From a virus: a stretch of 39,187 nt of DNA. Below, one piece after another: positions 20,762 through 39,187 of this stretch. The notes beneath the pieces are model-generated. The model had not been told where the DNA came from. It worked only from the letters and a program-made list of their open reading frames with translations, and searched no databases. The stretch lies in the UHGV virus genome UHGV-0864147. One strand, 5' to 3'. A program made the translations under genes and the position numbers. How positions within the stretch are numbered: position 1 is the stretch's first letter; the number at the start of each line of letters is the position of its first letter.

Positions 20762-20779
20762 CATGTCTGGAGACAGTTT

Positions 20780-21575: not shown

Positions 21576-21580
21576 AAACA

Positions 21581-21598: not shown

Positions 21599-21610
21599 GT
21601 GACATGTCAC
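21599..21610. repeat. 12-bp perfect palindrome GTGACATGTCAC (copy 2)
   Basis: Identical to copy at 2647-2658; overlaps a minus-strand stop codon and abuts terminator hairpin. Confidence 0.6.
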
Positions 21611-21903: not shown

Positions 21904-21915
21904 GTAGCCACCTAT

Positions 21916-22089
21916 TTACCCAGTAAAAATCAGAGGCCTCCCCTCAATAAGGCTTGCAACAAGAACTATTCCCTGCACAACAAAGATGAACCAGCAAATA
22001 GCTTGAGTCTGAGGGTTAAGAAAATATTTGTAGCGGTCAATAAATAACAACCCACCAAAAATTATCACACTCAAAATAATTAAAAACAC
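21916..22089 (-). CDS. small membrane peptide (57 aa, GTG start)
   Basis: Not in track; AAGGAAG before GTG; hydrophobic translation FLIILSVIIFGGLLF... Confidence 0.3.
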   Translation of the reverse strand: MFLIILSVIIFGGLLFIDRYKYFLNPQTQAICWFIFVVQGIVLVASLIEGRPLIFTG

Positions 22090-22098
22090 AACACTTCC

Positions 22099-24573: not shown

Positions 24574-24578
24574 TTAAT

Positions 24579-26381
24579 TTAACCTCTCAAGAAACACGCC
24601 ACAGCGACATCAAACAGGCTGGAATCCTGTATTGCCTGCTCACTTTCCATGTTCGCTTCATCCAGTACTTCACGCGCACTGCGCGATTGTGGATTACCAT
24701 CATCATCCAGCACGGTGATTATCATGTCAGGTGATTCAAGCAGCGAGTCTTCAGCTATGCGCAGATCAATATCTCCTGCCGGATCTGCCATCATCTTTTG
24801 TTCTGCCTGTTGCAATATCTTACCGGGCTCAAAAGGAGCTACTTCGTCTGGCGTCCTGACCTCTGCTGTTTTATAGAATGAAACAGCCTGAGCATTAAGT
24901 TCACTTTCAGCCTGCTGTCTCCGTGCCAGTTCTGCTCGAGCTTCAAAAAACTGACCGCCAGGCTCATGCGGTGCCAACACGTTACGGGAAAATTCCAGGC
25001 GTTCTTGTGCCTGCCGGATTCGTTGGTCAATATCGCGAAGTCTGGCCTGTTTATCTGATCGAGCACGAGATAAAGCCTTACCGCTACCGGTTGGCTCTTC
25101 TGCAAGAATTTGTGCGCGCTGTTCAGTGAGATTTTCAATAATTCGTTGGCTATTAGCGATTTCAGACTGGTAAACCTGTCTATCGCCACGCGACAAAAGC
25201 TGCGCGGCCTGTTCTTCAAGCAACCGATTTTCTATAGCGCGCGCCGTTACTCCATCATCTACAGATGACAGAGCCTCATTAACTGCCTGAGACAGCAGAC
25301 TCTTGCGCCCAGGAATTTCACTGAAAGATGCAGACTCAACAATGCTGGCAACGTCTACAGGTCTCCCCTGGCTAACATCAGACATGGCTTTTCGCAGAGC
25401 CTGAATGTGCGAATTACGCGAAAGCACGTTGATCGGAACGCCGGGAGCAATATCAATTTCAGCATGATGAGCGGCATTCGCCGCCAGTGCAGCATCAATA
25501 TCAACTGGTGAAAAATTTGGTGCGCTTGTAGACTCGCCGCGAGAGTTAATAAATCTGCCGACACCACCAAACGCCACCCCAAGAACAGCATCAATAGCAA
25601 TTGCCTGTCGATCCAACACATCATACTGGTTAGCCATTTCGCTATAGCCACCATCACGAAGCGTTTTTGCAGTAAGCCCACGCTGTGCCATACCGAACGC
25701 AATATTTGTACCTGCGGCATAGGCAATATCTGGCGTTGCACGTACTGCTGTTGCTGCGGCGCGTCGCACTGAACTTTCACCCGTCCGCGCAAGCTGAGCC
25801 GCCACACCTTCCGCCAGCGCACCACCAGCACGTAACCCGAGGCTCATAGGGATCAGTGTTCCGGCACCAGCAGTAATACCCTGCACTAATCCCGCTTCCT
25901 GCGCCGTCCTGAAATCAACACCCTGTGCTGTCAGCCGTTCAAACTCAGAAAAACCCTGTAGAGAAGTTACCGCCGCAGCACCTCCGACCGGACCACCGAG
26001 CGTTGTACCGACAACAGCCTGCCCGCCCATATCGAACAACCCATAAAGGACCTGCCCGGCTGTTCCGGTTGTCGCGGCATCAGGCGTCAGCCGCTTAACC
26101 TGCTGCTCTGCTAGTTTTCTCTGCTCAGCAATGTATGAAACTGAAGTGTCATTGAGCGAGGTGTTTTCGTTAACAAGCTGAGCAATCGGGGATACGATTT
26201 TATCCATCCCTGCCCATAGCAACTGATCTGGCTTTGCCACCAGCCCGGAGTACAAACCAGACAATGCCGCTCCTACAGCATTGTCGAAAAAACCAACATC
26301 GCTGTTAAAGCCAGCTGGATTTGATGCTGCTTCGTCAAGCTGCTGATTCTGGTTTACTGGATTAAGGCCAAAGTAACTCAT
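24579..26381 (-). CDS. virion protein (Ala/Gly-rich, internal protein candidate)
   Basis: 600 aa in structural operon, coupled to neighbours. Confidence 0.5.
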   Translation of the reverse strand: MSYFGLNPVNQNQQLDEAASNPAGFNSDVGFFDNAVGAALSGLYSGLVAKPDQLLWAGMDKIVSPIAQLVNENTSLNDTSVSYIAEQRKLAEQQVKRLTPDAATTGTAGQVLYGLFDMGGQAVVGTTLGGPVGGAAAVTSLQGFSEFERLTAQGVDFRTAQEAGLVQGITAGAGTLIPMSLGLRAGGALAEGVAAQLARTGESSVRRAAATAVRATPDIAYAAGTNIAFGMAQRGLTAKTLRDGGYSEMANQYDVLDRQAIAIDAVLGVAFGGVGRFINSRGESTSAPNFSPVDIDAALAANAAHHAEIDIAPGVPINVLSRNSHIQALRKAMSDVSQGRPVDVASIVESASFSEIPGRKSLLSQAVNEALSSVDDGVTARAIENRLLEEQAAQLLSRGDRQVYQSEIANSQRIIENLTEQRAQILAEEPTGSGKALSRARSDKQARLRDIDQRIRQAQERLEFSRNVLAPHEPGGQFFEARAELARRQQAESELNAQAVSFYKTAEVRTPDEVAPFEPGKILQQAEQKMMADPAGDIDLRIAEDSLLESPDMIITVLDDDGNPQSRSAREVLDEANMESEQAIQDSSLFDVAVACFLRG

Positions 26382-28891
26382 TGCGGAATATCTCCGGAGA
26401 ATCTCTGACGCTTCTGTGTCAGATCAAGAACAACAGGAGAACCATCATCTTTCAGCAGATAACCAGTACCAAGTTTCACCAGGTACTGACTATCGCCGTA
26501 ACTTTGCAAACCATACTGACCAGGCGGTGTTTTTATCCCGGTGCCGACAACTTGTTCATTCCAAGCCTGATTAACCTGCTTATCGAATTGCTCTGCAGAC
26601 ATTCCCCACGGCAAAAGAACATTCCCCATTCCGTTATAGTCATGCACGCCACCTGTAGCTACGTTAACAGCCTGTTTCCAGATATCATTGTCAATTTCGC
26701 CTGATACCACGCCTTTTTTCGCCATCACACCAGCGTAATAGTCCTTTGCGATCTCGTATGCCATTGATGCCCCCTGAGCATCACCAGCAAATGCATCCTT
26801 CACCATGTCAGAAAACTCAAGGCGAAGATCAGCATCTTTAGGCATCGGAATACCTTTCGCGTCATCAGTACCTTTACGAGCCGCCGCGCCAGCAAGAATT
26901 GTCTGCGCAGCGGTTTCAGGAGACACGGAAACATCCGGATTAAACCAGTTTTTTTCTGCCAAAATACCACCAGGCTTGTCCATCAGTATCCCGGCAACGG
27001 CAGCAGATGGAGCGTTGGCACTGATCTGCTGTAGTGCTGACATATACACCTGCCCACCACCAGTGCTCTGCCTGATGGTATCGAGATATGCTGCCTGTTG
27101 GGAAACGGGCGCATCACGAAAGAAAACACCGATCTGATTGGCCTCGTCTTTGGAAAAGAACGTCAGTGGAGTGCCATATGACTTAGCAAGGTCACTGACC
27201 TGAGCAGCACGCAAGGCAACGCTCTGTCCAAAGTTATCCTTATTGCTCATGTCGATAGGCTTTGCCTGTCCGGCGGCAAGAGAGAACTGTACAGGATCAG
27301 CCTGTCTCTGCTTTATCACCTGACTTGCAGCCGACACAACGTTGTCATAAAGAGCGGCTCGTGCCGCATAACCCTCCCCTGTCTCACCAGTATCCGGGCG
27401 TAATTGCTCAACATATGCTGTAATGCTGCTTGTCGGCATGTTGCGGAAAGAGCCTATATACTGTCCGGCGATTTGCGTATTTCTGAACTCGGTATATCGC
27501 AGGTTTCCTTCTCTGACTCCATAAGCTGCAATAAAATCAGCCTCACCAGGTGGGTTAGGAAATTCAACGCCACGCATATACGCAGCTGTCGCATCGCGAA
27601 CCTGGCTGTCAATCATCGTTTTATATTCAGCCTGCTGCTGCCGACGCAGTTGATCCGCCTGTCGCATAAAACTTGCCTGCGCCTCAGGAGATGCCGCATC
27701 GAATGCTGCATTACCGGTATAGCGTTTGGTGTTGGTTGGAATTGTTGATAAACCAAGTGCTGCACTGACACCAGCAGTTAACTGCTGATCACTGTATGGC
27801 TGGCTACCGTTCTCATGATGGATAATGGCTGCACAAAGCGCCTTCAGGGTATCAGGATTAGATGCATCGAGAGGCTCATCAGCAGAAACGCCAAGTTGTT
27901 CGCACACTGCTTTGATATACGACATAGTGTCATTTTTATCAGTAGGCGGTGCCCAGCGATTAATTATCTCGCTGACGGTATCAATACCCTGCCTCTGATA
28001 CGACATCAGGTTCCGCCCTAATGCACGAATCCCGTGTTCAGGTGTTTCGAATTTAGCAAATCGACCATCATCACCGGTCTGGCCTACCCACGGATTGGTT
28101 TTGCTGTATTCGAGATTTCCTGGGTTATTGTTGCGTATGCCACGGGCACGCTCGGAAGAATCACTATCTGCTACAGCACGGCGAGCTCCAGCAGCAGTAT
28201 CACTTAACTCGCCATTACTTTGGATGAATGCGGTCGCATTGTTTGCCGACCACTGGGACAATGCTGCATCAGCAACCTTCTCTTTAAACTCGATTTTCTT
28301 GGCCTGGATTTGCTCGTCGCTCCAGCCATGCGCAATGCCGTAATCCTCAATTTGCTGGAAAGTTTGCTTATTAGCCAATACGTATGCGGCGTTGTCGCCA
28401 TACAATGCTGCGGCATTTTTACCATTGTTCAGCAGCGTCGCCTGAAACTGGCCTTCTTCGTAGGCATTTATTTGCCATATCTCGTGCCGCCCGGCCTGCG
28501 TAGTGAACTGAATGCGCTGCTGCTGCGCCTGCTGCATGAAAGCATTACGAGCCTGTTCATCCGGCAGCGACATAGCCAGTTGCTCGACCTGGGCATCAAA
28601 CTGCTGCGTATACTCCTGACCTTTTCCAATAGCATTTTTCCCTTTCAGGTTAAGCAAACCTGTTTCAGGGTTATTCAGCAGATCGCTGCTTATCTGACTG
28701 AGGTTAAGGGATGCCTCCTGTGCCAGAGCGATATTGGCACGCTGTTTTGCCTGACCAAAAACATCAATTGCCTCTGTCCCTGCCCGAACAAAAGCATCAC
28801 CAATACCTTGCTGAGAAAACGTCTGCAAGCCTGCTGACTGAACTCCACGACTCTCAACCTGACGTCCGGATACTGTTGGTACGACTGGCAT
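26378..28891 (-). CDS. large virion protein (internal/ejection protein candidate)
   Basis: Start ATG 28889-28891 overlapping upstream stop; about 837 aa. Confidence 0.5.
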   Translation of the reverse strand: MPVVPTVSGRQVESRGVQSAGLQTFSQQGIGDAFVRAGTEAIDVFGQAKQRANIALAQEASLNLSQISSDLLNNPETGLLNLKGKNAIGKGQEYTQQFDAQVEQLAMSLPDEQARNAFMQQAQQQRIQFTTQAGRHEIWQINAYEEGQFQATLLNNGKNAAALYGDNAAYVLANKQTFQQIEDYGIAHGWSDEQIQAKKIEFKEKVADAALSQWSANNATAFIQSNGELSDTAAGARRAVADSDSSERARGIRNNNPGNLEYSKTNPWVGQTGDDGRFAKFETPEHGIRALGRNLMSYQRQGIDTVSEIINRWAPPTDKNDTMSYIKAVCEQLGVSADEPLDASNPDTLKALCAAIIHHENGSQPYSDQQLTAGVSAALGLSTIPTNTKRYTGNAAFDAASPEAQASFMRQADQLRRQQQAEYKTMIDSQVRDATAAYMRGVEFPNPPGEADFIAAYGVREGNLRYTEFRNTQIAGQYIGSFRNMPTSSITAYVEQLRPDTGETGEGYAARAALYDNVVSAASQVIKQRQADPVQFSLAAGQAKPIDMSNKDNFGQSVALRAAQVSDLAKSYGTPLTFFSKDEANQIGVFFRDAPVSQQAAYLDTIRQSTGGGQVYMSALQQISANAPSAAVAGILMDKPGGILAEKNWFNPDVSVSPETAAQTILAGAAARKGTDDAKGIPMPKDADLRLEFSDMVKDAFAGDAQGASMAYEIAKDYYAGVMAKKGVVSGEIDNDIWKQAVNVATGGVHDYNGMGNVLLPWGMSAEQFDKQVNQAWNEQVVGTGIKTPPGQYGLQSYGDSQYLVKLGTGYLLKDDGSPVVLDLTQKRQRFSGDIPQ

Positions 28892-29436
28892 TATAATCCT
28901 CCGGGTAATCTGGTTCCTGCTGCTGCCCCGATTGGCGCAGGAGTGCTTTGAGTAAACGGACTCCACGTCCCACCAAACATCTGGTACGCACCGTATGCCT
29001 TCAGAGGCGCAGTGAGCAATGTTGTTGCTGCTCCCACATTCCCCTGTTTACGGGCTGAACTGGCTTCTGCTTTATAGTTGGCAGCCTGAACCTGATAACC
29101 GTAAGCCTCGCGTTGCGCGTTATTCACCGTCGTCAGCGAATCAAGAGTACCAAACTGGGCAGTGTCGCCAAATATATCCAGCGCGTTACCTGTAGATAAA
29201 TCAGCGCCGGTAGCCCCCATTGTCGCCGCCTGTGTACCAAGCCGCTGTCGGGTCTCTCTGCGCCGTTGCTCAGCTTCAGCGTTACCTCTGTTTATTGCAT
29301 CATTTGCCTGAGCTGTGGCTATATCTGCGTTCGCTTCTGCAACCTTCGAGGCATACTTTCCCTGTTGGTACTGGGTGTATGCCTGAATGCCACTCATGGC
29401 GAGCATTGCGCCACCAGCAATAACCGGATCGCACAT
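28891..29436 (-). CDS. virion protein
   Basis: 181 aa, Ala/Gln-rich, in structural operon. Confidence 0.45.
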   Translation of the reverse strand: MCDPVIAGGAMLAMSGIQAYTQYQQGKYASKVAEANADIATAQANDAINRGNAEAEQRRRETRQRLGTQAATMGATGADLSTGNALDIFGDTAQFGTLDSLTTVNNAQREAYGYQVQAANYKAEASSARKQGNVGAATTLLTAPLKAYGAYQMFGGTWSPFTQSTPAPIGAAAGTRLPGGL

Positions 29437-29900
29437 TATTTTCTCTCCATGTGAAATCTGTGGAAATTAAGACCAAGAGCACCATAAGGCGCGGCTTCTT
29501 CAAGCCTGAATCCAAGCCAGTGCAGCCATGCTTTGGCAACATGGTTTCGCTCGTCGACATAGTTTTCCAGGCGCGGATAAACTGCCAGCATCTGCTGCAA
29601 TACAGGGCGGCAGTGGCGAAGAAATGTCTTCTGATATTTTTCGATACGGCTGGTTCCGACCAGCCATGGCGTACCATTGCCACCGATCATTGACGCCGGA
29701 GATACGCCAAACATGGTTACCAGTTCTCCGTTCGCGAACCCTGACCAGGCCATAGTCGCAGTGCGAAGACCAACACGCAGCGCATCTTCGGTAGTCATCA
29801 GCGATACCGCATACAGTTCGTCAATATCAGCCTGACGAACATCCGGCAAAATCATCTGAAGATGCTCTTTGGTGGCGGGAATAATTCGAACATCGATCAT
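29436..29900 (-). CDS. virion-module protein
   Basis: 154 aa, ATGA coupling both sides. Confidence 0.45.
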   Translation of the reverse strand: MIDVRIIPATKEHLQMILPDVRQADIDELYAVSLMTTEDALRVGLRTATMAWSGFANGELVTMFGVSPASMIGGNGTPWLVGTSRIEKYQKTFLRHCRPVLQQMLAVYPRLENYVDERNHVAKAWLHWLGFRLEEAAPYGALGLNFHRFHMERK

Positions 29901-32371
29901 CAGAATCCCCCAACAGTAAGACGAGGAATAACGGCAAGAACAGACAGCGGCAACGGATCGAGCTGACGAATTTTTACACGTCCGTTTTTGCCCCAGTTAC
30001 TGTCCAGTTTCACTTCTACTTTTCCGGTAGCGTCATCAACAGGATCATCGTAGAACTCGAATTCACGCTGTGGATATTCGTACCATTTACCGCCGGGCGT
30101 AGTCGCCCAGATGCCGCGACTGGCATTCACAACAAGAGTAACGGACGGGATCACCTGTTTTTTGTCCAGCAGCGTTTCCTGTCCGTTAATGTTGATATCC
30201 AGTGTTTCGAATTCAGCAGTTATTGGCAGGCCGATGTGCACAACAGCCCCAGGTGATTCCAGCGTGACGGCACCTCCGGAAACCACTTTCTGTGGTTCCA
30301 CGTTCGCATCAGAGAGAATGTTTACGGTCTGGCCTTCAAGATGAGACAGGCCTCCAAATGTCCGGCGCGCCATCTGCCAGTTCGTGGTAGCCACATTCCT
30401 GAGGGATGGCGGGACGTTCCTGTTAGCACGAACCACTACAGCGGTATTGCTGGTTACAGAAATGATGTCGCAACGTAATTCTTTTGACACTTCATCGCCA
30501 GTATCAGGATCAGTTCCGGTATAAGGGAACTGTAGTTGAGCACCGACATCACTACTGGTGAAGTACGCACCACCAGAAACACTGATTGTATATTCCGCGC
30601 GGTAATCCCATTCGCCAGAACCACCAGTGATGATCATCGTTCTGTCAGACGTATTTCTTCCATCATAGCTAAGGCCAGAATCAACAAAGAAAGCATCTTC
30701 ATCGCTGGTAAATAAACGGCTGGACAGTCGCTCGATGTATCTCACTGTTTGCCCGTTAACGGTTCGGTTAACGACGAAATACACCGCATCTTCATTGCCT
30801 TCGCTGATACTGCATGTGCTTTCATATTTTCCGGTACTGGATTGTGGTGCCCATGCAAAAACCTGCTGATCACGCAAATAGGTCATCACCAGTAATTTAC
30901 CGTCATCACGAATGCAGAATGCGCTGGAGTAAGGAACAATCGAGAAGCACCAGTCAACAATGCTGTGCTTCTGAAAAAGATGATTGGCAAGGATGGTCAG
31001 GTCGTTCCCCTGATAGCCGTCAACATCGAATGAGTAGGCCAGATCACGGACAACACTGCCTTTCTCTTGGACGAACAGAGCAATATTCGCTACGGCAATT
31101 GGTGGGACATTACTCGAGCCATTTGATCCCTGAGAGCTGAATGCAAATGATGATGGGGTTAACACTTTGTTCTGGTCGCCGGTGATGACGTACTCACCTC
31201 CGGAAGTCAGCGCCACCAGAGAACCAACATCAATCAGGTGACGGATCTCATTAACCTGATGCCCGGCATAGGTGTAGATAATTCTGTCGTCATCCTGCGT
31301 AGGATTGCTTTTGCCAAAATCCTTATAATCCCCGGTACGGCTGGCCCAGATAGTCTGAGGGAACGCAGTCGATGCGGCGAAGTAAAGACGTTGTTGATAA
31401 TAAACAACAGTGCCAGGATAACCATTAACACTGTTCCAGGCATATTTAGCCCATTTATAGCTGGCATTATCCTCGCCCACGACCTGCGAAGGGATATAGG
31501 AAATCACCTCGGCAGTTGCAGTAGTTCCATTTGCAGCAGTGATACGGGCAATGCCAAAACCACTGTGCAGATATTCCCACTCAATGCCAGTATCATCATC
31601 ACCGGATCCGCCCCAGCCATCCCATGATGTGCCTTCTGTATGCGAAGGGCGCAAAGTACCTGTTTTGCCTGCTGTAACGGCGCGATAGTAGTTACTGTCT
31701 GCACGGCGAATATCGCCAATCGACGTACTCTTACTGGTTTCCCATACCGGCACAGAATCCACTGCAGGCTGTTCCAGATAGAACAATTTGCCTGCCTGCT
31801 CCGCGCCAAAAATAGAGGCGCTTGCCGTTAACGTAATTGTCCCGGTGCTGGCGCTGGCATAAACCGTCACTGACTCATCAATATTGATATCTTCAAATGG
31901 CCCGTTCTTCGTTACCACATCAACCAGTTGCCAGTTGTCATGCGCATAGCGGCGCAGCTCTTTCGGCGGGTATGCCGGGTGAACCAGCGTAAGCACGTCG
32001 GCGCTTTGCGTGAATTTAATTCGGAACAGATCGGCTTCAGTATATGGCGTGGCAATTTCATAAATAACATTGCTGCTGTTCAGCACCAACGCACCATCTT
32101 TGATAACGCGCATGTACTGGTGTCCGAACTCCAGAGCATAGGTCTGAACCGTCGAGAACTGGAACGGGATCAGGCGGCATTTCCGATTTGGGTATTTGGC
32201 GGCACCGACAAAACGCGTACCAGGTCGATTCTCAACGCCGCCATACTGCCGCACGATAAAGTTATCGCACTTGCGCAATGCCACCTGGTACTTCGCCATG
32301 TCGATACGACCGTACAACGACGGTCCAATCTCACCACCGGCAAAGCTGGGCTGGATCCAACTGATAGCCAT
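29900..32371 (-). CDS. large tail/virion structural protein
   Basis: 823 aa; position and size comparable to podovirus tail tube protein. Confidence 0.5.
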   Translation of the reverse strand: MAISWIQPSFAGGEIGPSLYGRIDMAKYQVALRKCDNFIVRQYGGVENRPGTRFVGAAKYPNRKCRLIPFQFSTVQTYALEFGHQYMRVIKDGALVLNSSNVIYEIATPYTEADLFRIKFTQSADVLTLVHPAYPPKELRRYAHDNWQLVDVVTKNGPFEDINIDESVTVYASASTGTITLTASASIFGAEQAGKLFYLEQPAVDSVPVWETSKSTSIGDIRRADSNYYRAVTAGKTGTLRPSHTEGTSWDGWGGSGDDDTGIEWEYLHSGFGIARITAANGTTATAEVISYIPSQVVGEDNASYKWAKYAWNSVNGYPGTVVYYQQRLYFAASTAFPQTIWASRTGDYKDFGKSNPTQDDDRIIYTYAGHQVNEIRHLIDVGSLVALTSGGEYVITGDQNKVLTPSSFAFSSQGSNGSSNVPPIAVANIALFVQEKGSVVRDLAYSFDVDGYQGNDLTILANHLFQKHSIVDWCFSIVPYSSAFCIRDDGKLLVMTYLRDQQVFAWAPQSSTGKYESTCSISEGNEDAVYFVVNRTVNGQTVRYIERLSSRLFTSDEDAFFVDSGLSYDGRNTSDRTMIITGGSGEWDYRAEYTISVSGGAYFTSSDVGAQLQFPYTGTDPDTGDEVSKELRCDIISVTSNTAVVVRANRNVPPSLRNVATTNWQMARRTFGGLSHLEGQTVNILSDANVEPQKVVSGGAVTLESPGAVVHIGLPITAEFETLDININGQETLLDKKQVIPSVTLVVNASRGIWATTPGGKWYEYPQREFEFYDDPVDDATGKVEVKLDSNWGKNGRVKIRQLDPLPLSVLAVIPRLTVGGF

Positions 32372-32979
32372 CAGGACAACCTCGCAATGGTAAACTCGTC
32401 AACCGGTGGCTGTGGTTCCTGTGATTCATTCTGGCTATGCGAGCCAGCACTAAGAATCACGCGATTGTACATATTGAGGGCAAACGTACCGAGGTCTGCA
32501 TTCCCAGTCAGCGCCATGTTAATAGCTGCCGCAAGACGCCAGGCCAACGCCTCCATAAAAATGGCATCAAACATGTTCACATCTGAAACGCGAGAGACAT
32601 ACTTGAGCCATGCCTGAGGCTGGTCTGTGTAGATCAACTTTCCTGTTCCGTTGGTGTCTGCACCAACTTCGTACTGAACGCGCATTGATGCTGTTGGATT
32701 GCGTACACCAGGAAGCATAATTTCAGTAATGCGCAGACAATCTGACGGGTACTGGTACGCATATTCCCAGTCAGGCGGTGGATTGCTCGTATCTGCAAGC
32801 GCCACGCGTTTGGTAGCAAAGTTCCAGTCAAAATCAGAAAGCACAGCATCACGGCAGGCCTCAAAGTGCAGCGAACATTCCCCCGCTTCCTTGCTGGCTT
32901 CCGTCAGGCTGTTAATGCTGCGGCTGTTGCCAATATTGGACAGCGCACGATTGCAGATCTCTACTACAGAGGCCATCAC
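32371..32979 (-). CDS. structural protein
   Basis: 202 aa in structural operon. Confidence 0.45.
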   Translation of the reverse strand: MMASVVEICNRALSNIGNSRSINSLTEASKEAGECSLHFEACRDAVLSDFDWNFATKRVALADTSNPPPDWEYAYQYPSDCLRITEIMLPGVRNPTASMRVQYEVGADTNGTGKLIYTDQPQAWLKYVSRVSDVNMFDAIFMEALAWRLAAAINMALTGNADLGTFALNMYNRVILSAGSHSQNESQEPQPPVDEFTIARLS

Positions 32980-33305
32980 TCACCTCCGTTACCGTACAGA
33001 GTTTCAGCCGCTGATTTTTCTACATCCCCGGAAACAGGAGCGATCGCCATATCAGTGATCTGCAGATCGGCGCTGCGATTAACGCCATCGTCAGTTTCTC
33101 TGGCAGACAGGCCTCGAATAACAGCCTTTGCAGTTATCATCACTTCTGTTCCGACGCCCTGAGGTTGCGCCTTCAGCTTATTCAATGTGTCGTTATTCAG
33201 CGTGATGCACAGCCCCCACGGGTATTCATCGCGAGTTCTGGTTTCTCCGCTCTCATCCTGGTAGCTGTCAGTGCCGGTTTTGAGGTTTACGAGTTCCATA
33301 TACAC
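32976..33305 (-). CDS. structural-module protein
   Basis: 109 aa. Confidence 0.4.
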   Translation of the reverse strand: MYMELVNLKTGTDSYQDESGETRTRDEYPWGLCITLNNDTLNKLKAQPQGVGTEVMITAKAVIRGLSARETDDGVNRSADLQITDMAIAPVSGDVEKSAAETLYGNGGE

Positions 33306-33349
33306 TCCTGCAATAAAGGGGCCGAAGCCCCTTGTCTCATCCGCGAGGC

Positions 33350-33694
33350 TTACACGCCCAGTTCTTTACGCTTATCTGCGATCTTCTCGCGGAGCGTTTC
33401 TGCTTTGGCGTTATGGTGTGGCTTCTCGTTAAAGAGCAATTCGTACTCTTCACGGAGCTTATCCAGTTCACCATCATCTGACACATCGTTGATGATTTTG
33501 GTGCTGGTTGCTGCCATAGACACCTTTCCTGCTACCTTTGCTTTTGCCTGTCTGGCTGCATCGTTAACAGGTTCCAGTGCGCTACCAGGCTCACCTTCGT
33601 ATTCGATTTCTGCCCCCTCCTGCCACAGTGTGTTATGGATATGAGAGAGGCGCAGAACGCGGTATCTTGGTTTCTCACCTGACATCGATATCAC
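33350..33694 (-). CDS. structural-module protein
   Basis: 114 aa. Confidence 0.4.
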   Translation of the reverse strand: MISMSGEKPRYRVLRLSHIHNTLWQEGAEIEYEGEPGSALEPVNDAARQAKAKVAGKVSMAATSTKIINDVSDDGELDKLREEYELLFNEKPHHNAKAETLREKIADKRKELGV

Positions 33695-33695
33695 C

Positions 33696-34133
33696 TTAAC
33701 CAGTTACTTTTGAGCGGATCGGGTACGGTGTATTGGCATCAACATCCAGACTGATACCCGCAGTGAATTTGCCGGCCGTTAGTGGGCCAGTTGCGACGGA
33801 GTAGTTAACACGCAGATATCGCTGAACACCGGCAGGCACCTTTGCAGAAACAACTCGTTTACCTGCTTTCAGGGTAGCCTTTGCCAGTTCGCCACTATCA
33901 TAAATAGTGGACCATGAGCTGTTATTCTCACTCGTCTGCAACTGGATGTTTACAGTTGCCTCACCACTTGCCGTGGCGGCTTCGTTAACCAGCGCCCAAA
34001 ACTCAAGCGGGTAACCCACGCCGATATCGCGACGATTTCCATCAATTGGACCGAGATCGATTACGTCAGTAGAAGCCGCGGTATTCGTAACCGCCTGAGC
34101 TTCGGAGAACATCAACAGTTTGTCGGTGATCAT
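33696..34133 (-). CDS. capsid-associated protein (decoration candidate)
   Basis: 145 aa immediately after major capsid gene. Confidence 0.4.
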   Translation of the reverse strand: MITDKLLMFSEAQAVTNTAASTDVIDLGPIDGNRRDIGVGYPLEFWALVNEAATASGEATVNIQLQTSENNSSWSTIYDSGELAKATLKAGKRVVSAKVPAGVQRYLRVNYSVATGPLTAGKFTAGISLDVDANTPYPIRSKVTG

Positions 34134-34184
34134 CTTCTTTCTCCATTAGTGGGTCTGTTACGACCAACAGGTTAATAACAGGCG

Positions 34185-35177
34185 TTACACCACGCGGGCT
34201 TCTGTTTCCAGAAGCGCATCAGTTTCACGGATTGGTACACCACGGAATGAAGTCCACCACTCGCCTTCAGTCTCTTTTACGCTGATAGCCAGAGATGTTT
34301 TCTCCAGAGACTGCAGATCAAGAGCCTGGCCTACAGTGCGGTTCATGTAGAACACCGGGCGTCCCATGCCACGGTTTGGAATGCGATGCAGTGCTTTAAC
34401 CATCAACTTCGCAATATTTGCGGCAGAGGAAGGTTCTGAAAGATTGCTGACATCGATGTTTGCAATGCGAACAACATAACGCCAGTCACGCAGAGCAAGT
34501 CCGTTGTCCCATTTGTAATGGGTACGGTAGCCTTCGTACTTGCCGCCATTAACATCTTCCAGTGTCACCTGGCCTTTATCTTCCATCTGGATGCCAGCCT
34601 TCTGCCCTTTCGGGAAGATGCCATGCACGGTGTTTTCGCCCCACACCACTAACCAGATTGAGGTGTTATCTGTACCCGTGCCACCAGCATCAATGATGTT
34701 CTGAGCATTACCCGCAGACAGGCTGGAATAGCGGGAGGACAGTCCCATAAACTGCTGAGGGTTAACGCTGGAATCACCATAAAACAACGTCTGCGCCATC
34801 TGCTGATTCATCGCTTCAATAAATGCGCGGTCTTCAGACAGGCGGAATTCGGCGGTATTACCGTTCAGATCAGCCAGTGACTTATCGACTTCAGCATAGG
34901 TTTCCAGCATTCCAACGGAATCGGTGACCTGCACTGTGGTTGATTTGCTTGGCTGTACGCCATAGTTCAGCAAACGCCAGGTGGCCGAAGGTAAACCAGA
35001 ACGAATGGTGGTTCGGTGTCCGGTAGGAAGGTTCCCTTCGACAAAAGGCATATCCTGAAGGATCGGGTTAGTTTGACCGAGAAGCTCGATAATCTTATCG
35101 ACTTTCCCGTTTGGATCGACGCGCTTACCCCAGTCAGCCAGCGTTAGCGCAGTTAAGCCTTTAACAGACATTGTCAT
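34185..35177 (-). CDS. major capsid protein
   Basis: 330 aa directly after scaffold gene; size and position typical. Confidence 0.7.
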   Translation of the reverse strand: MTMSVKGLTALTLADWGKRVDPNGKVDKIIELLGQTNPILQDMPFVEGNLPTGHRTTIRSGLPSATWRLLNYGVQPSKSTTVQVTDSVGMLETYAEVDKSLADLNGNTAEFRLSEDRAFIEAMNQQMAQTLFYGDSSVNPQQFMGLSSRYSSLSAGNAQNIIDAGGTGTDNTSIWLVVWGENTVHGIFPKGQKAGIQMEDKGQVTLEDVNGGKYEGYRTHYKWDNGLALRDWRYVVRIANIDVSNLSEPSSAANIAKLMVKALHRIPNRGMGRPVFYMNRTVGQALDLQSLEKTSLAISVKETEGEWWTSFRGVPIRETDALLETEARVV

Positions 35178-35185
35178 TTCCTCTC

Positions 35186-35887
35186 TTATTTGCCATAGAG
35201 CACTTCGGCCGCACTACGCTGGCCTTCATTACCACCGGTGACCATGCCATCTTCAGACATCGCCTTTCCGATTTTCACGAACGTTTTGACCAGATCAGGG
35301 TGATTACCCAGCCCGGTGGTGTTCAGATATTCTTTGAGCTCAGGTGTCCCGAACTGGTCAAGCGCACGCTGTGCGGCGCTAAGGTTAGAAATCAACTTGT
35401 CGCCACCGATTTCTTTGTCAGCTTTTACATCCGCAGCCCACTGCTCGGTTGTTTTCTGCCAGGCTTCTGCCTGGCGCTGCTGAACACCTGCCAGAATCTT
35501 CGGATAAGCATCAACCAGCTTTTGCGCTTGCTCGTTGGTCAGGTTAAGTTCTCGCGCCACAGGCTCGAATTCCTTCAACGCTTCTGTATCCAGCTCTACG
35601 CCTTCGGCAGCCTGAAACTCGTACTTCTCAGGCGCACCCTCTGGTTTATTACCGTCCTTTTTTTCATCCTGCTTATCGTTTTCAGGCTTTTTGTCATCAG
35701 CAGGTTTATCGCCATCAGCAACAGGTTGTGGCTTATCACCTTCCTGTTGTGATGGATCACCAACTGGAGCAGGGTTATCACCTGCAGGCGCTGACGGTTC
35801 TGACGCAGCCGGAGCTGCTCCACCATCGACTGGTTGCTCATTGCAAAGACGGCGATACAGCAAACGCTCAAATAAATTCATGATCAC
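35186..35887 (-). CDS. scaffolding protein
   Basis: 233 aa, highly acidic Pro/Asp/Lys-rich low-complexity N-half with helical C-half, between portal and capsid. Confidence 0.6.
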   Translation of the reverse strand: MIMNLFERLLYRRLCNEQPVDGGAAPAASEPSAPAGDNPAPVGDPSQQEGDKPQPVADGDKPADDKKPENDKQDEKKDGNKPEGAPEKYEFQAAEGVELDTEALKEFEPVARELNLTNEQAQKLVDAYPKILAGVQQRQAEAWQKTTEQWAADVKADKEIGGDKLISNLSAAQRALDQFGTPELKEYLNTTGLGNHPDLVKTFVKIGKAMSEDGMVTGGNEGQRSAAEVLYGK

Positions 35888-36180
35888 TCCTGTTCACTGG
35901 CCTCTTTGGCCATCTTCAAATACTGTTCAGGGCAATGCGCCATAACGCGCTGAAACAGTTCCAGCGCCAGATTGCGTTGCCCCTCATTAAACGCCATTGC
36001 CATAGCGTCCATCGGTGAGATAGCGGAAAACACACGGCCTTTCTCCAGCACCGACCAGACAACGCGACGCCCCTGTTCACTGCTCATGACAAAGCGAATG
36101 TCATCAATTTCACGCTGCGCCATGTCACGTTGCTTACGGGCGTTTTCTTCTTTCAGTTGATCGTCTTCGTAATCTGTCAT
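35884..36180 (-). CDS. hypothetical protein
   Basis: 98 aa, coupled to portal and scaffold genes. Confidence 0.4.
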   Translation of the reverse strand: MTDYEDDQLKEENARKQRDMAQREIDDIRFVMSSEQGRRVVWSVLEKGRVFSAISPMDAMAMAFNEGQRNLALELFQRVMAHCPEQYLKMAKEASEQE

Positions 36181-37856
36181 TGTGATTGCCCACCCTGACC
36201 ACTAACTGCATTCGCCATAGCTGACAACACACTCGGATCCGAAGTTTTAGCTTCGCTTAGCGTCTTGGCACCCTGTGCCGCAGCCATCCCCATCGCCATC
36301 ATTTGTTGCTGCTGTTGCTGCTGTGCCCGTTGCTGGCGAGCCTGCTCAACCTGTTCCTGCGGAACAATGACGGTTGGAGACACTCCAGACATATCAGCGA
36401 ATGCATCGATTGCCTGATCAACGTTGAGTTTGTCGAGAGCTTCTGGTTTCGCTTGCGCAAGTTGACCAATGAAGTTGACCGTAGACGCCAGACTGGACAG
36501 GCCGATAGACTTCTGCGCCTGAGCCATGACGGAAATGTATTCGACCTTCAGGGGCATACCTTCCATCGCGTCAGGCGGGGGCGGCAGCATGTTTTTACGC
36601 ACCATCATCGAGAAAGAGCGGTCAATGAGAGGATTAAGACATTCGTCGTTCAGACGCTCCAGAACCGGCCCCAACATCAGAAGTTTTTCTTCTTTCATTT
36701 CGATCACCGCTTCAACAGGCATCGAGCGGGTATTGATGTTCTGCAACATCATGAACAGATCGACAAAGTAGGCGCTGTTAATGATTTGACGAGTGTCCTG
36801 AATGTCTGCCACCAAATCTGCTGTACTGGGGTTAACCAGATAAGCAGGCCTGAAGCCATCCTGACCAGTAATCTGATCGATATACGTGATGTCGCCAGGA
36901 AGAAGGGAGGCGCGCTGATTCTTGAGGGAAATCGGAGCAACCATCGGCGGATTGGTGGCTTTATCAATCAACTGCGACTTGCGCTTCTGGAGAAGCTGCA
37001 ATGCCTTAACAGGTCCAAGCGCCAGCATACCCGGGCATGATGATCCATAAACATCTTCGCCGTTAACTTCCCAGCGCGGAGCCATAATTGGAAACTCATC
37101 GAATCCGGACTCACGCAACAACCTGTCGTTATCGCCACCAACCTCGTAATAAACCGATTTGAATGGCTTGTTCTTGCTATCCAGCTTCGATGTATCGCGG
37201 TCAATGTTCGGGTAAACCGAATGCATCACTTCAATCCGCTTCTCGTAGGTGCCGCTTTCCCACATGCTTTTTACGGATTCGCTGACGTTATTTAGTCCGA
37301 ACTCCTGAACAAGCTGACGAACAGTCATAGAGAACTTGCGAAAACAGGTGTCCACACTGCCACGAGGTGAGTTAGCCAGGTAGTAACTTCCTATCGGGAA
37401 TGGCATTGTACGAATGATGTCCTCGTCATCCTCCAGCACCGCCATTGCGCCAGTGCTGTATGTGCCGAGGCTTCCGTATAACTGCGGCAGCGACTGATAG
37501 AGATTCGACTTATTGAACATATCGTTCATGCGGTTCTGCACCGCCTCAAGCCACAACTTAACAGGGCCATAATCCATCATTTCAGGATCTGGCGTAGCCA
37601 GGCGAAACCACGGACGCGCGGGGCTTGTGATGCCTGACATCATGCCGCTGGCGAGAGTGCGCGCCGCCATAGTCCCGGTCGAATCAATAATGCGTGTATT
37701 GCGTCGATCGTTACGGTTGACCTCAGAAGTCAGAAAGCGGGAACCACGCGGGTTGATGTAATCACTCAACTCGCGCCAGTGCGGCTCGAACGACTGACGC
37801 TCGCTTTCAAGTTGTGCGAACTGTTTGTTCAATCGCTCTTTAGTTGTTTCCGCCAT
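36177..37856 (-). CDS. portal (head-to-tail connector) protein
   Basis: 559 aa, first large gene of structural operon, Gln-rich C-terminal tail. Confidence 0.75.
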   Translation of the reverse strand: MAETTKERLNKQFAQLESERQSFEPHWRELSDYINPRGSRFLTSEVNRNDRRNTRIIDSTGTMAARTLASGMMSGITSPARPWFRLATPDPEMMDYGPVKLWLEAVQNRMNDMFNKSNLYQSLPQLYGSLGTYSTGAMAVLEDDEDIIRTMPFPIGSYYLANSPRGSVDTCFRKFSMTVRQLVQEFGLNNVSESVKSMWESGTYEKRIEVMHSVYPNIDRDTSKLDSKNKPFKSVYYEVGGDNDRLLRESGFDEFPIMAPRWEVNGEDVYGSSCPGMLALGPVKALQLLQKRKSQLIDKATNPPMVAPISLKNQRASLLPGDITYIDQITGQDGFRPAYLVNPSTADLVADIQDTRQIINSAYFVDLFMMLQNINTRSMPVEAVIEMKEEKLLMLGPVLERLNDECLNPLIDRSFSMMVRKNMLPPPPDAMEGMPLKVEYISVMAQAQKSIGLSSLASTVNFIGQLAQAKPEALDKLNVDQAIDAFADMSGVSPTVIVPQEQVEQARQQRAQQQQQQQMMAMGMAAAQGAKTLSEAKTSDPSVLSAMANAVSGQGGQSQ

Positions 37857-37870
37857 TTCAATGACTCCGG

Positions 37871-38077
37871 TTACTGACCAAGCAGCGTTTTACCGCTGGT
37901 ATTAGCGGTTGATGTGTCGCCCTGAGAACCGGTAAGCAGCGTAGAACTACGACCAGCAGCAGCGCGACGGCGACGTGTTTCTTCGTCGCGGGCATCAACA
38001 ACGGCGGCATCCTGCTCCTGTGGTGCTGCCTGAACTTCTGGTGTTGCAGGCACTGATGGTGAGCTACCCATGCACAT
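37871..38077 (-). CDS. hypothetical small protein
   Basis: 68 aa, GGAG 10 nt upstream of ATG; alternative overlapping frame 37858..38097 less likely. Confidence 0.3.
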   Translation of the reverse strand: MCMGSSPSVPATPEVQAAPQEQDAAVVDARDEETRRRRAAAGRSSTLLTGSQGDTSTANTSGKTLLGQ

Positions 38078-38145
38078 ATCAATGACTCCGTACGCAATTA
38101 AATTATTACCAATTTAACCACATATGATTTATTTATCGTAGAAGG

Positions 38146-38182
38146 TTGACATTTAACGCGTGAATTATTACCTTTCAGGTAA
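38146..38182 (+). promoter_or_regulatory. TTGACA -35-like hexamer with TTACC-N5-GGTAA site 38168-38182
   Basis: Perfect operator-like repeat 17 bp downstream of consensus -35 hexamer; on same strand as tRNA. Confidence 0.4.
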
Positions 38183-38504
38183 CCAAAGAGCTCATTCTGG
38201 TTACTAACCTGACTGGCTTGTCGTTAAATTAAACAGGTGGAGTGAGCTTTTATTTTGAGCAGTACGGCGTATGGCACATGCGCCGATAGCGGTCTGGATA
38301 CGTTTAAGGGGCACCCTCCCTTGCTCGGGCAAACGAACCAGGTAGCCGGAATGTGCAAGTCGAGCGGTTTTATTCCGCGCACGGGGATTCACCATCCCGG
38401 CGATTCGGTGTGACGCCTCGGAAGAGACGAGGGTACAACGATGAGAGCATTTATGGAGCCGCGACAAAGTGTGGCGCCTTAACAGGCTAAGTGCTCTCAG
38501 CGTT

Positions 38505-38581
38505 GTGGCATTAGCTCAGTTGGACAGAGCAACCGCCTTCTAAGCGGTTGGTCGCAGGTTCGAATCCTGCATGCCACGCCA
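38505..38581 (+). tRNA. tRNA-Arg (anticodon UCU)
   Basis: 77 nt cloverleaf: acceptor GTGGCAT/ATGCCAC, D-arm GCTC..GAGC, anticodon stem ACCGC/GCGGT with loop CTTCTAA, T-arm GCAGG TTCGAAT CCTGC, encoded CCA. Confidence 0.85.
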
Positions 38582-38623
38582 GAATCACGCCTAAGGACCG
38601 TGATGCCAGAAGTTCCAGGTGCT

Positions 38624-38665
38624 TGGCGGTGATGGTTTCCCTTGAAGGACTATCACCGCCCTTTT
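38624..38665 (+). terminator. terminator downstream of tRNA
   Basis: GGCGGTGAT 18-nt loop ATCACCGCC followed by CTTTTT. Confidence 0.55.
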
Positions 38666-38744
38666 TACAGCAGGACGCCATTGCGATGACTTCATGCTGT
38701 AAACCCGTACAGCCACGGAAGGCATAACTCATTGCTTCCAGTTC

Positions 38745-38768
38745 GCCCGGTTCGCCGGGCATTTTTTT
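38745..38768 (+). terminator. intrinsic terminator
   Basis: GCCCGG TTCG CCGGGC followed by ATTTTTTT. Confidence 0.7.
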
Positions 38769-38784
38769 GCTTGATGACCGCAAA

Positions 38785-38802
38785 TTACCTTAAAGGTATA
38801 AT
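38785..38802. promoter_or_regulatory. TTACC-N5-GGTAT site overlapping TATAAT hexamer and SD of moron ORF
   Basis: 9/10 arm match; AAGGT within site sits 6 nt before ATG 38804. Confidence 0.4.
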
Positions 38803-38803
38803 C

Positions 38804-39187
38804 ATGAAAAACTTCAAGGTAATTAGCATGTTTGAATCGTTTAAAGAGCTGTTTTTATCTACTGCCAATACTGCCGTGAATCGAGCCAAAAACCCTGTGC
38901 TTGGTGCTTTTGTTATGTCCTGGTGCGCCTTCAACTGGAAATCAATTCTTTATCTATTTTTTAGCAAATCAAACATAATAGATAAAATTTCATATATCTC
39001 AGATAACAGCACATGGAAAACTGTTATGTTTTATCCATGCTTATCTGTAATTGCTATCTGCTGCCTATTACCATGGGTAAACAATATCATTAACGTATGG
39101 CAAGCAAAGCCTCTTGATAATAATCACTCAATCGAAAATCACCTGAAGGCAAGAAAAATCCAGCGTGAAACCAGACTGCAGAGGTTA
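38804..39187 (+). CDS. N-terminal part of AT-rich moron ORF (two predicted TM helices), open to window end
   Basis: ATG 38804 with AAGGT SD; 128 codons without stop to base 39187; in frame with ORF at 1..435. Confidence 0.4.
   Translation, partial: MKNFKVISMFESFKELFLSTANTAVNRAKNPVLGAFVMSWCAFNWKSILYLFFSKSNIIDKISYISDNSTWKTVMFYPCLSVIAICCLLPWVNNIINVWQAKPLDNNHSIENHLKARKIQRETRLQRL

What the first reader, a model, noticed from the sequence alone, without database searches (positions are those of the whole stretch)
38804..39187. ORF continues in frame across the window ends: circularly permuted genome and a membrane/coiled-coil moron
The ORF starting at 38804 has no stop before base 39187 and is exactly in frame with the ORF at 1..435, giving a 272-aa protein if joined: two N-terminal TM helices followed by a long charged coiled-coil. 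The window then behaves as a full circular or circularly permuted phage genome. This AT-rich gene sits between terL and the tRNA/portal region and is a candidate superinfection-exclusion or abortive-infection function.
Basis: partly seen in the sequence, partly recalled or inferred. Interest (0 to 1): 0.55.

Follow-up and report, generated by a model that had tools for sequence, protein, structure and literature searches.

The report
Split prophage membrane gene, circular genome
The two ends of this sequence join into one intact gene because the window is a complete circular phage genome cut open inside that gene; the gene is a self-contained accessory cassette for an uncharacterised membrane-anchored coiled-coil protein that sits in accessory-gene slots of several kinds of temperate phage and is a reasonable, untested candidate for a phage-exclusion function.

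Summary
Observation confirmed. ORF 38804..39187 joins 1..435 in frame (272 aa). The joined DNA is contiguous at up to 99.5% identity in 37 complete E. coli genomes, and window bases 39187 and 1 map to adjacent bases of a prophage. The window is a complete phiV10/epsilon15-like (Uetakevirus) genome in circular form with attP intact.

Refinements. The conserved start is probably ATG 38828 (264 aa). The promoter-like -10 box ends at 38802, and ATG 38804 is specific to this allele group. Only the second hydrophobic helix is a strong transmembrane segment.

The gene is a low-GC (36% against 48.5%) cassette with its own promoter-like site, on the strand opposite the late genes and convergent with terL. 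It is absent from phiV10. It belongs to PHROG 4780 (function unknown), a large family (2464 clusters) with no Pfam, NCBIfam, PADLOC or PDB relative. The first ~160 residues are conserved under purifying selection; the C-terminal coiled coil is swapped between alleles.

Relatives occupy the same slot in distant Uetakevirus-like prophages, the nin region of lambdoid phages, the published P2 gpA-gpQ defence hotspot and an inovirus. An exclusion or abortive-infection role is the best guess (about 0.45) and is untested.

The parts
38828..39187 (+). 5' part of the gene: the conserved start ATG at 38828 through codon 128 of the 272-aa numbering. It encodes an amphipathic N-terminal helix, hydrophobic helix 1, a short loop, the strong TM helix 2 and the start of the stalk helix.
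   Evidence: Open to the window end. Homologues start at the equivalent Met. PHROG 4780 aligns from residue 9.
1..435 (+). 3' part of the same gene: codons 129-272 plus the TAA stop at 433..435. It encodes the conserved stalk up to about residue 167 (nt 1..117), then the hypervariable coiled coil and a disordered tail (nt 118..432).
   Evidence: In frame with 38804..39187. Contiguous in 37 E. coli genomes. Mosaic structure. AlphaFold helix 71-216, with low-confidence stretches (pLDDT below 50) in 245-266.
38804..38827 (+). Allele-specific in-frame 8-codon extension (MKNFKVIS). RefSeq annotates it as the start, but it is probably 5' UTR.
   Evidence: In the other allele groups compared the codon at 38804 is not ATG (AGA in four of them; the 282-aa alleles share it). 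The -10 box ends 2 nt upstream. An AAGG at 38816..38819 lies 8 nt before ATG 38828.
38774..38802 (+). Sigma-70-like promoter: ATGACC, 17-nt spacer, TATAAT.
   Evidence: 10 of 12 consensus matches. Both hexamers and the spacing are conserved in the alleles from E. coli, Klebsiella and the lambdoid phage KO-TP1. Consensus match only; activity not shown.
38745..38770 (+). GC-rich hairpin plus T-run (terminator-like) directly upstream of the promoter. Similarity to phiV10-type phages ends here, at 38768.
38625..38670 (+). First terminator-like hairpin downstream of the tRNA.
38505..38581 (+). tRNA-Arg (anticodon TCT), a co-oriented neighbour. It is not part of the cassette: phiV10 has it without the gene, and several alleles lack it.
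38894..38962 (+). Hydrophobic helix 1 (aa 31-53), carrying the family signature NP..GAF..SW..FNWK. Weakly hydrophobic.
39020..39100 (+). TM helix 2 (aa 73-99), strongly hydrophobic. It continues without a break into the stalk helix.
432..1907 (-). Large terminase gene, convergent with the cassette. The two stop codons overlap. Similarity to other Uetakevirus genomes resumes at about 430.
14412..14428 (.). attP core. This 17-nt stretch matches both prophage ends, next to the integrase at 12971..14221(-). It shows that the window is the circular (excised) form.

Best explanation
Shown:
- The window is a complete genome of a phiV10/epsilon15-like temperate podophage (Uetakevirus) in its circular form, linearised arbitrarily inside one gene.
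- The two end ORFs are therefore one intact gene, most likely 38828..39187 + 1..435 (264 aa).
- It is a low-GC transcription unit on the strand opposite the late operon: an upstream hairpin terminator, its own sigma-70-like promoter, a short leader, then the CDS ending on the stop codon of terL.
- It occupies a slot whose content varies among close relatives.

Shown by prediction: the protein has a conserved ~160-residue N-terminal module. This consists of an amphipathic helix, a hydrophobic hairpin with invariant polar and Pro/Trp positions, and a second TM helix that runs on as one roughly 145-residue helix. A C-terminal coiled coil and tail follow, and these are exchanged wholesale between alleles.

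Inferred:
- The hairpin places both termini in the cytoplasm, with the coiled coil oligomerised below the inner membrane.
- The gene is expressed from the prophage.
- It acts against incoming phages. The variable cytoplasmic coiled-coil end would be the specificity or sensor part. The conserved membrane module would be the effector, either perturbing the inner membrane (abortive infection, as for lambda SieB/Rex-type proteins) or blocking genome entry at the inner membrane (superinfection exclusion, as for P22 SieA or T4 Imm).

Confidence by part: about 0.97 that it is one gene in a circular genome, about 0.9 that it is an accessory cassette, about 0.45 that its function is anti-phage. The overall figure given (0.5) is held down by the functional part.
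For: Junction and circularity:
- The joined 1488 nt are contiguous in 37 complete E. coli genomes.
- The window ends map to adjacent prophage bases, and attP is intact.
- A 41-kb circular record, pHL15EC-2, carries the same junction.

Cassette:
- Similarity to phiV10, phiv142-3 and others stops at 38768 and resumes at about 430.
- phiV10 carries a different small gene there, and phiv142-3 has only about 128 bp.
- The promoter and upstream terminator are present and conserved across alleles, including in a lambdoid phage.
- GC is 36% against 48.5%.

Real coding gene under selection: against the 282-aa allele, aa 101-167 give dN 0.08 and dS 1.8, and aa 9-100 give dN 0.014 and dS 0.11. Residues 168 to the end are unalignable.

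Structure:
- AlphaFold mean pLDDT is 85.5, with one helix 71-216.
- Kyte-Doolittle hydropathy peaks at 2.15 for TM2.
- There are 9 K+R against 4 D+E just after TM2.
- Heptad occupancy is 0.75-1.0.

Context pointing to defence or exclusion:
- Relatives, down to 26% identity, sit in the same terL|portal slot on the opposite strand.
- Relatives sit antisense in the nin region of two lambdoid Klebsiella phages.
- Relatives are the sole cargo between gpA and gpQ of two P2-like prophages. That locus is published as a hotspot of anti-phage systems (PMC9122126; PMC13586616).
- One relative lies next to an Rhs toxin and a NERD protein, one next to ParA, and one in a Vibrio inovirus.
- The gene is patchy: its N-domain DNA is found in 62 of 5426 complete E. 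coli genomes, whereas 897 have a match to at least part of the 1488-nt piece (which includes the flanking tRNA/terL sequence).
Against: - There is no sequence or fold similarity to any characterised exclusion or defence protein. Pfam, NCBIfam and PADLOC give only coiled-coil noise.
- hhalign probability is 0.7% against lambda SieB and 0.3% against the AC1 2TM protein.
- PDB and BFVD fold searches give nothing below E = 0.7.
- No expression or phenotype data were found in the literature searched.
- Conserved synteny in the terL|portal slot down to 26% identity could instead mean a phage-lifecycle role.
- Some relatives lie in ordinary chromosomal neighbourhoods.
- Helix 1 is only weakly hydrophobic, so the topology is uncertain.
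- No downstream terminator was found.
- The promoter is a consensus match only.
Confidence: 0.5

Rival explanations
1. It is a lysogenic-conversion membrane protein with a host-directed role, such as envelope or membrane stress tolerance, division or shape effects, or niche fitness. It is expressed from the prophage but does not act on phages.
For: The cassette evidence is the same as for the main explanation: own promoter, opposite strand, low GC, patchy distribution. Membrane-anchored coiled-coil proteins often act as scaffolds. Morons with host-fitness roles are documented in prophage moron slots, for example neaT in a P2-like prophage (PMC3573123). Some relatives lie in ordinary chromosomal neighbourhoods.
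Against: Wholesale swapping of the C-terminus beside a strongly conserved N-module is more typical of conflict systems than of housekeeping-like fitness factors. Occupancy of the P2 gpA-gpQ hotspot also points to a conflict system. No similarity to any known virulence or fitness factor was found.
Confidence: 0.2
2. It is an accessory gene for the phage's own cycle, for example membrane anchoring of replication or packaging, control of genome entry or of lysis timing, or antisense and transcriptional interference on the terL-portal late transcript.
For: The terL|X|portal slot is occupied by family members in Uetakevirus-like prophages as distant as 26% identity and in E. coli and Klebsiella lineages. 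The gene converges on terL with overlapping stops, and no terminator lies downstream. Its transcript would therefore run antisense into terL.
Against: It is absent from viable close relatives (phiV10, phiv142-3, typing phages 9 and 10) that share the flanks at 96-99% identity. The same family occurs in lambdoid, P2-like and filamentous phages with unrelated packaging and morphogenesis. Strong purifying selection on the protein sequence argues that the protein matters, not merely the act of transcription.
Confidence: 0.15
3. The joined ORF is an artefact: an assembly or linearisation accident, or a decaying non-functional ORF.
For: The gene is split by the window ends. Shorter database entries exist, such as the 163-aa P0027 and C-terminal fragments starting at an internal Met in other alleles.
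Against: The junction is contiguous in 37 independent complete genomes and about 30 viral contigs. dN/dS is well below 1 in the conserved part. The family comprises 2464 clusters at 50% identity. The helical model is confident.
Confidence: 0.02

Closest known systems
Lambda / P22 SieB (superinfection exclusion B, an abortive-infection type protein; Pfam PF14163)
   Same: It is a small prophage-expressed protein with two N-terminal hydrophobic helices, followed by a basic juxtamembrane stretch and a cytoplasmic C-terminal part. It is encoded as a single gene on the strand opposite its neighbour and ends exactly at the stop of the convergent gene (lambda sieB 34482..35036 against N 35037..35438). 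This is the same layout as this gene against terL.
   Different: No detectable homology: no Pfam SieB hit at E <= 1, and hhalign probability 0.7%. SieB has no long coiled coil. The resemblance is in architecture and layout only.
P22 SieA, T4 Imm and HK97 gp15 (inner-membrane proteins that block genome entry)
   Same: They are prophage- or phage-encoded small inner-membrane proteins that act alone. The comparison rests on my own knowledge of these families.
   Different: No sequence comparison was made here beyond the library scans, which gave no hit. Those proteins lack a roughly 120-residue cytoplasmic coiled coil, and their variable or interaction surfaces are not known to be swapped in this way.
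Cargo of the P2 gpA-gpQ defence hotspot (old, tin, DUF4238, 2TM+1TM+TIR and others; Rousset et al. 2022, PMC9122126)
   Same: Distant family members are the only cargo gene at exactly this locus in two P2-like prophages. As in those systems, the cassette is replaced between otherwise near-identical phages.
   Different: It is not homologous to any PADLOC model or to the AC1 2TM protein. Its activity is untested.
PHROG 4780 (with weaker matches to PHROGs 13369 and 35327)
   Same: Full-length match: E = 3.7e-136, residues 9-272.
   Different: The PHROG has no assigned function, so membership names the family but explains nothing.

Membership tests
Complete circular-form Uetakevirus (phiV10/epsilon15-like) genome | The window ends are contiguous in independent copies. 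| tested here: met
   The 1488-nt joined piece is colinear in 37 genomes. Window bases 1 and 39187 map to adjacent prophage bases.
Complete circular-form Uetakevirus (phiV10/epsilon15-like) genome | attP is intact, so the sequence is not a prophage excerpt bounded by attL and attR. | tested here: met
   Window 14412..14428 matches both prophage ends. Window 5445..14428 runs into the guaA 3' end, and 14412.. continues at the other prophage end.
Complete circular-form Uetakevirus (phiV10/epsilon15-like) genome | Virion DNA is circularly permuted and terminally redundant (headful packaging). | not testable with these tools
   No terminal repeat is present in the window. The phiV10 record notes that its TerL resembles P1 PacB, which is only suggestive. 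Read-end analysis is needed.
Moron (autonomous accessory transcription unit in a temperate phage) | It is present in some genomes and absent from closely related ones, with sharp similarity boundaries. | tested here: met
   The boundaries lie at 38768 and about 430. phiV10 and phiv142-3 lack the gene.
Moron (autonomous accessory transcription unit in a temperate phage) | It has its own promoter and flanking terminator(s). | tested here: inconclusive
   A promoter-like site with 10 of 12 matches and an upstream hairpin terminator are conserved across alleles. No downstream terminator was found. These are consensus matches only.
Moron (autonomous accessory transcription unit in a temperate phage) | Base composition is atypical. 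| tested here: met
   36.4% GC against 48.5% for the window.
Moron (autonomous accessory transcription unit in a temperate phage) | It is expressed from the repressed prophage. | not testable with these tools
   RNA-seq or a reporter assay in a lysogen is needed.
SieB family (PF14163) | Sequence or profile similarity to SieB. | tested here: not met
   No Pfam hit at E <= 1. hhalign of the family profile against lambda SieB gives probability 0.7%.
Known anti-phage defence proteins (PADLOC-DB 2.0) | A match to a defence-protein model outside coiled-coil regions. | tested here: not met
   Only the coiled-coil parts of DndD, LmuB, JetC and PbeC match, and weakly. This holds for the query and for 137 diverse members.
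2TM component of the 2TM+1TM+TIR system of P2-like phage AC1 | Profile similarity to AC1 protein 1. | tested here: not met
   hhalign probability 0.3%. The sequence came from PMC9122126 Table S2A.
PHROG 4780 | A full-length profile match. | tested here: met
   E = 3.7e-136, residues 9-272 against profile positions 1-267 of 275.
Membrane-anchored coiled-coil protein (2 TM, N-in/C-in) | Two membrane-spanning helices. | tested here: inconclusive
   Helix 73-99 has a Kyte-Doolittle mean up to 2.15. Helix 31-53 reaches only 1.23 and has a conserved N-W-K. No dedicated TM predictor was available.
Membrane-anchored coiled-coil protein (2 TM, N-in/C-in) | A long heptad-periodic helix. | tested here: met
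   AlphaFold helix 71-216 at pLDDT about 98. a/d occupancy is 0.75-1.0. Weak hits to SMC/Rad50 coiled-coil regions agree.

The most novel reading that the evidence does not exclude
The NP..GAF..SW..NWK membrane module plus a swappable coiled coil defines a previously undescribed, widespread single-gene anti-phage family (2464 clusters at 50% identity). It is carried by at least four unrelated temperate-phage types (Uetakevirus, lambdoid, P2-like, inovirus). The exchangeable cytoplasmic coiled-coil end would set which invader is recognised, and the conserved hairpin would execute membrane-level exclusion or abortive infection.
Probability: 0.35. Interest if true: 0.7.

Novelty: new variant of a known kind. 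Interest (0 to 1): 0.42.

Why it matters
The circular-genome part is routine, but it is useful for annotation. The window is a whole Uetakevirus genome, and the two end ORFs should be merged, probably with the start at 38828.

The gene itself is the interesting part. It belongs to a large family with no assigned function that recurs in the accessory-gene slots of several temperate-phage lineages. One of those slots is a locus already shown to be a reservoir of defence systems. The family also shows the conserved-effector plus swapped-specificity pattern typical of conflict genes.

If the gene does exclude phages, it would add a compact single-gene system. It would also give a natural set of chimeric alleles for mapping specificity. 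And it would matter for predicting phage susceptibility of E. coli and Klebsiella lysogens.

Tried and rejected
- Pfam, NCBIfam and PADLOC scans of the protein and of 137 diverse relatives gave only coiled-coil noise: UPF0242, SMC, Rad50, DndD, LmuB, JetC.
- A profile search of PDB sequences gave nothing; the best hit was cytochrome b5 at E = 0.2.
- The first AlphaFold run, on 62 close homologues, was poor (pLDDT 65.8). The second, on 137 diverse sequences, was good (85.5).
- Foldseek against PDB and BFVD gave no match below E = 0.7. The afdb50 library was unavailable.
- hhalign against lambda SieB and against the AC1 2TM protein was negative.
- The shared weak UPF0242 hit between this protein and the AC1 2TM protein looked like a lead. 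It reflects helical and coiled-coil composition, not homology.
- A profile search of the N-domain in the word-indexed database returned only 8 fragments.
- Two genome-contig scans confirmed no locus. Organism names for the distant relatives are therefore missing.
- Literature searches found nothing on this protein. The terms tried were the accession numbers, PHROG 4780, phiV10 with moron, epsilon15 with exclusion, and Uetakevirus with defence.
- A Wzz-like O-antigen chain-length regulator was considered. It was dropped because both hydrophobic helices are N-terminal and the charge distribution puts the coiled coil in the cytoplasm.
- A functional link between the tRNA and the gene was considered. 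The two occur independently of each other.

Full report
**1. The observation**

The + strand frame that starts at ATG 38804 runs to the last base of the window with no stop (128 codons). Frame 1 at base 1 then runs 144 more codons to TAA at 433..435. Joined, they give 819 nt and a 272-aa protein. By my own rough estimate, a frame of about 36% GC staying open for 144 further codons by chance has a probability near 10^-4 to 10^-5.

The decisive test was external. A 1488-nt sequence built as 38400..39187 + 1..700 aligns in one ungapped piece at 98.5-99.5% identity; 39 records from 37 complete E. coli genomes cover at least 80% of it. RefSeq annotates an 819-nt CDS there, WP_000787773.1, 'hypothetical protein'. 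About 30 IMG/VR viral contigs carry the same gene uninterrupted.

**2. What the window is**

Both sides of the gene match phiV10, phiv142-3, ZX5, O157 typing phages 9 and 10 and other Uetakevirus genomes at 96-99% identity.

I compared the window with a prophage of E. coli O22:H8 strain 154, which lies between guaA and yfgI. The result was:
- The window is a circular permutation of the prophage.
- Window base 1 matches prophage position 19117 and base 39187 matches 19118.
- The 17 nt at window 14412..14428, beside the integrase (12971..14221, minus strand), match both prophage ends. This is an intact attP.

So the window is the excised, circular form of a complete roughly 39-kb genome, opened by chance inside a gene. 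It carries no terminal repeat. Whether packaged DNA is circularly permuted cannot be decided from the sequence.

**3. Anatomy of the locus**

On the + strand the order is:
- tRNA-Arg(tct), 38505..38581
- two hairpin-plus-T-run terminator-like sites, 38625..38670 and 38745..38770
- a promoter-like ATGACC-17-TATAAT, 38774..38802
- the CDS

The late genes (terS, terL, portal) are all on the minus strand. The CDS ends on the terL stop codon, and no terminator follows it.

Similarity to phiV10-type genomes stops at 38768, just after the second hairpin, and resumes at about 430. In that interval phiV10 has a different small gene (p03, noted as Sf6 gp66-like) and phiv142-3 has only about 128 bp. GC falls to 0.375 inside the gene, between flanks of 0.50-0.55.

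The upstream hairpin, both promoter hexamers with their spacing, and the leader are conserved in alleles from E. coli, from Klebsiella and from the lambdoid phage KO-TP1. The unit therefore moves together with its own control region.

**4. Start codon**

Nearly all relatives begin at the Met that corresponds to residue 9. In the other allele groups compared, the codon at the position of ATG 38804 is not ATG (AGA in four of them); the 282-aa alleles share ATG 38804. The -10 box ends two bases before 38804, so a transcript would start downstream of it. An AAGG lies 8 nt before ATG 38828. The product is therefore most likely 264 aa, from 38828.

**5. The protein**

With a diverse 137-sequence alignment, AlphaFold gives mean pLDDT 85.5. 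The predicted elements are:
- an amphipathic helix, 5-28
- helix 31-53
- a short helix, 58-68
- one uninterrupted helix, 71-216
- a short helix, 218-240
- a low-confidence (pLDDT below 50), mostly non-helical tail

Helix 73-99 is strongly hydrophobic (Kyte-Doolittle mean up to 2.15). Helix 31-53 reaches only 1.23 and contains the conserved N-W-K. The 36 residues after TM2 hold 9 K+R against 4 D+E. By the positive-inside rule, this places the stalk and coiled coil in the cytoplasm, with a 19-residue periplasmic loop. That topology is an inference. Heptad a/d occupancy is 0.75-1.0 over residues 128-216.

**6. Family**

The protein is a full-length member of PHROG 4780, function unknown. A profile of the conserved first 160 residues finds 2464 cluster representatives (50% identity clusters) at E <= 0.001 and 371 at E <= 1e-10. 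Most are 220-350 aa and start with the same module. The nearly invariant positions are R27, P31, G34, F36, W40, N44, W45, P78 and P90.

Neither the query nor 137 diverse members match any Pfam, NCBIfam or PADLOC model other than through coiled-coil composition. There is no PDB sequence hit and no PDB or BFVD fold hit.

**7. Evolutionary pattern**

Comparison with the 282-aa allele found in other Uetakevirus contigs:

| Residues | Nucleotide identity | dN | dS |
|---|---|---|---|
| 9-100 | 97% | 0.014 | 0.11 |
| 101-167 | 80% | 0.08 | 1.8 |
| 168-end | unalignable (28% aa identity) | 0.75 | not computable |

The gene is thus a mosaic of at least three segments. Its N-terminal 160 residues are under strong purifying selection and its C-terminus is replaced wholesale. 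The same pattern holds across 62 homologues: columns are invariant up to about residue 167, and there is no consensus after that.

**8. Where relatives live**

- Same slot (terL | gene | portal, opposite strand): E. coli prophages with a 246-aa allele, Klebsiella prophages, Klebsiella phage BUCT711, Escherichia phage EC.W1-9, and a metagenomic prophage whose protein is only 26% identical.
- Other phage types: antisense between the replication genes and ninB in the lambdoid Klebsiella phages KO-TP1 and ST11-VIM1phi8.2.
- P2-like prophages: the only cargo between gpA and gpQ in two of them.
- A Vibrio inovirus.
- Elsewhere: next to an Rhs toxin and a NERD protein, next to ParA, and in two ordinary-looking chromosomal neighbourhoods.

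The P2 gpA-gpQ interval is a published hotspot of anti-phage systems (PMC9122126; PMC13586616).

In complete E. coli genomes, the N-module DNA is detectable in 62 of 5426, whereas 897 have a match to at least part of the 1488-nt piece, which includes the flanking tRNA/terL sequence. The blastn search misses the more divergent alleles, so 62 is a lower bound.

**9. Interpretation**

Two points are firmly established: this is one intact gene in a circular genome, and it is an autonomous accessory cassette.

For function, the best-supported reading is a prophage-expressed inner-membrane protein that acts against other phages. The support is:
- an independent, insulated promoter on the non-late strand
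- foreign base composition
- patchy presence among near-identical phages
- spread across four unrelated temperate-phage types
- occupancy of a known defence hotspot
- a conserved membrane module joined to an exchangeable cytoplasmic end

The closest analogue in architecture and gene layout is lambda SieB, but there is no homology. I cannot separate entry exclusion from abortive infection. The cytoplasmic location of the variable part leans towards sensing something inside the cell.

The rival readings are a host-directed conversion function and a role in the phage's own cycle. The second is suggested by the deep conservation of the slot. None of these has been tested experimentally, and I found no publication on the protein.

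**10. Verdict**

Its structural interpretation (circular genome, membrane/coiled-coil moron) is supported with two corrections: the start codon and the weak first helix. Its functional suggestion remains a reasonable, better-supported but unproven hypothesis.

The split itself is ordinary. The gene family is an uncharacterised candidate worth a simple plating experiment.

Noticed in passing
window 19646..19829 (+): Rfam finds isrK (19646..19722, 74.7 bits) immediately followed by a C4 antisense RNA (19742..19829, 78.6 bits). To my knowledge this pair belongs to P1/P7-type immunity (antirepressor control). It suggests this phage has an RNA-controlled second immunity region.
   Followed up: no
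window 38505..38581 and the gene 38828..435: The co-oriented tRNA-Arg(UCU) decodes AGA. AGA supplies 4 of the 8 Arg codons in the gene, against about 10% of Arg codons in 15 long phage ORFs. However, the tRNA and the gene occur independently in relatives. The numbers are small.
   Followed up: partly
window 14412..14428; integrase 12971..14221(-): The attP core overlaps the 3' end of host guaA. Related prophages sit between guaA and yfgI.
   Followed up: partly
window 2993..5444, 16227..18765, 19556..22096, 28777..29431: These segments have little or no megablast match to the otherwise 98% identical prophage of E. coli strain 154. They are further replaceable modules. Judging by position, they include early-region genes and the tailspike and O-antigen-modification region.
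   Followed up: no
L003 (NZ_CP079771.1, pHL15EC-2) and H92 (NZ_CP079770.1): Strain HL15 has the same phage twice: in its chromosome, and as a 41,027-bp circular record deposited as a plasmid, with a frameshifted portal gene across the record origin. The 'plasmid' is most likely the excised or replicating phage genome captured by assembly.
   Followed up: no
P0188, P0190, P0191, P0253 (relatives); equivalent to window residues about 118 onward: Several database proteins are C-terminal fragments that start at an internal Met (M-I/L-Q-R-S-T-R-L-Q-R-L...) just after TM2 in other alleles, for example the BUCT711 allele. They may be gene-calling artefacts at contig ends. Alternatively they may hint at an internal start giving a soluble fragment, reminiscent of Esc within sieB. 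The window allele has no Met there.
   Followed up: no
L036, L042, L044 (IMG/VR contigs) against window 38804..435: These carry a 282-aa allele with the same 8-codon N-terminal extension and a 97% identical first 100 codons, but an unrelated C-terminal 115 residues. The apparent recombination breakpoints lie near codons 100 and 167.
   Followed up: yes
L004 (phiV10 2278..2649): In phiV10 the same slot holds a different small gene on the same strand (p03, 123 aa, noted as similar to Sf6 gene 66), plus an annotated terminator. The slot is a general accessory-gene site in this genus.
   Followed up: partly
L057 (P0200, 238 aa): One distant family member carries a precomputed GerE/LuxR-type helix-turn-helix hit in its C-terminal part. 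The N-module can therefore be fused to something other than a coiled coil.
   Followed up: no
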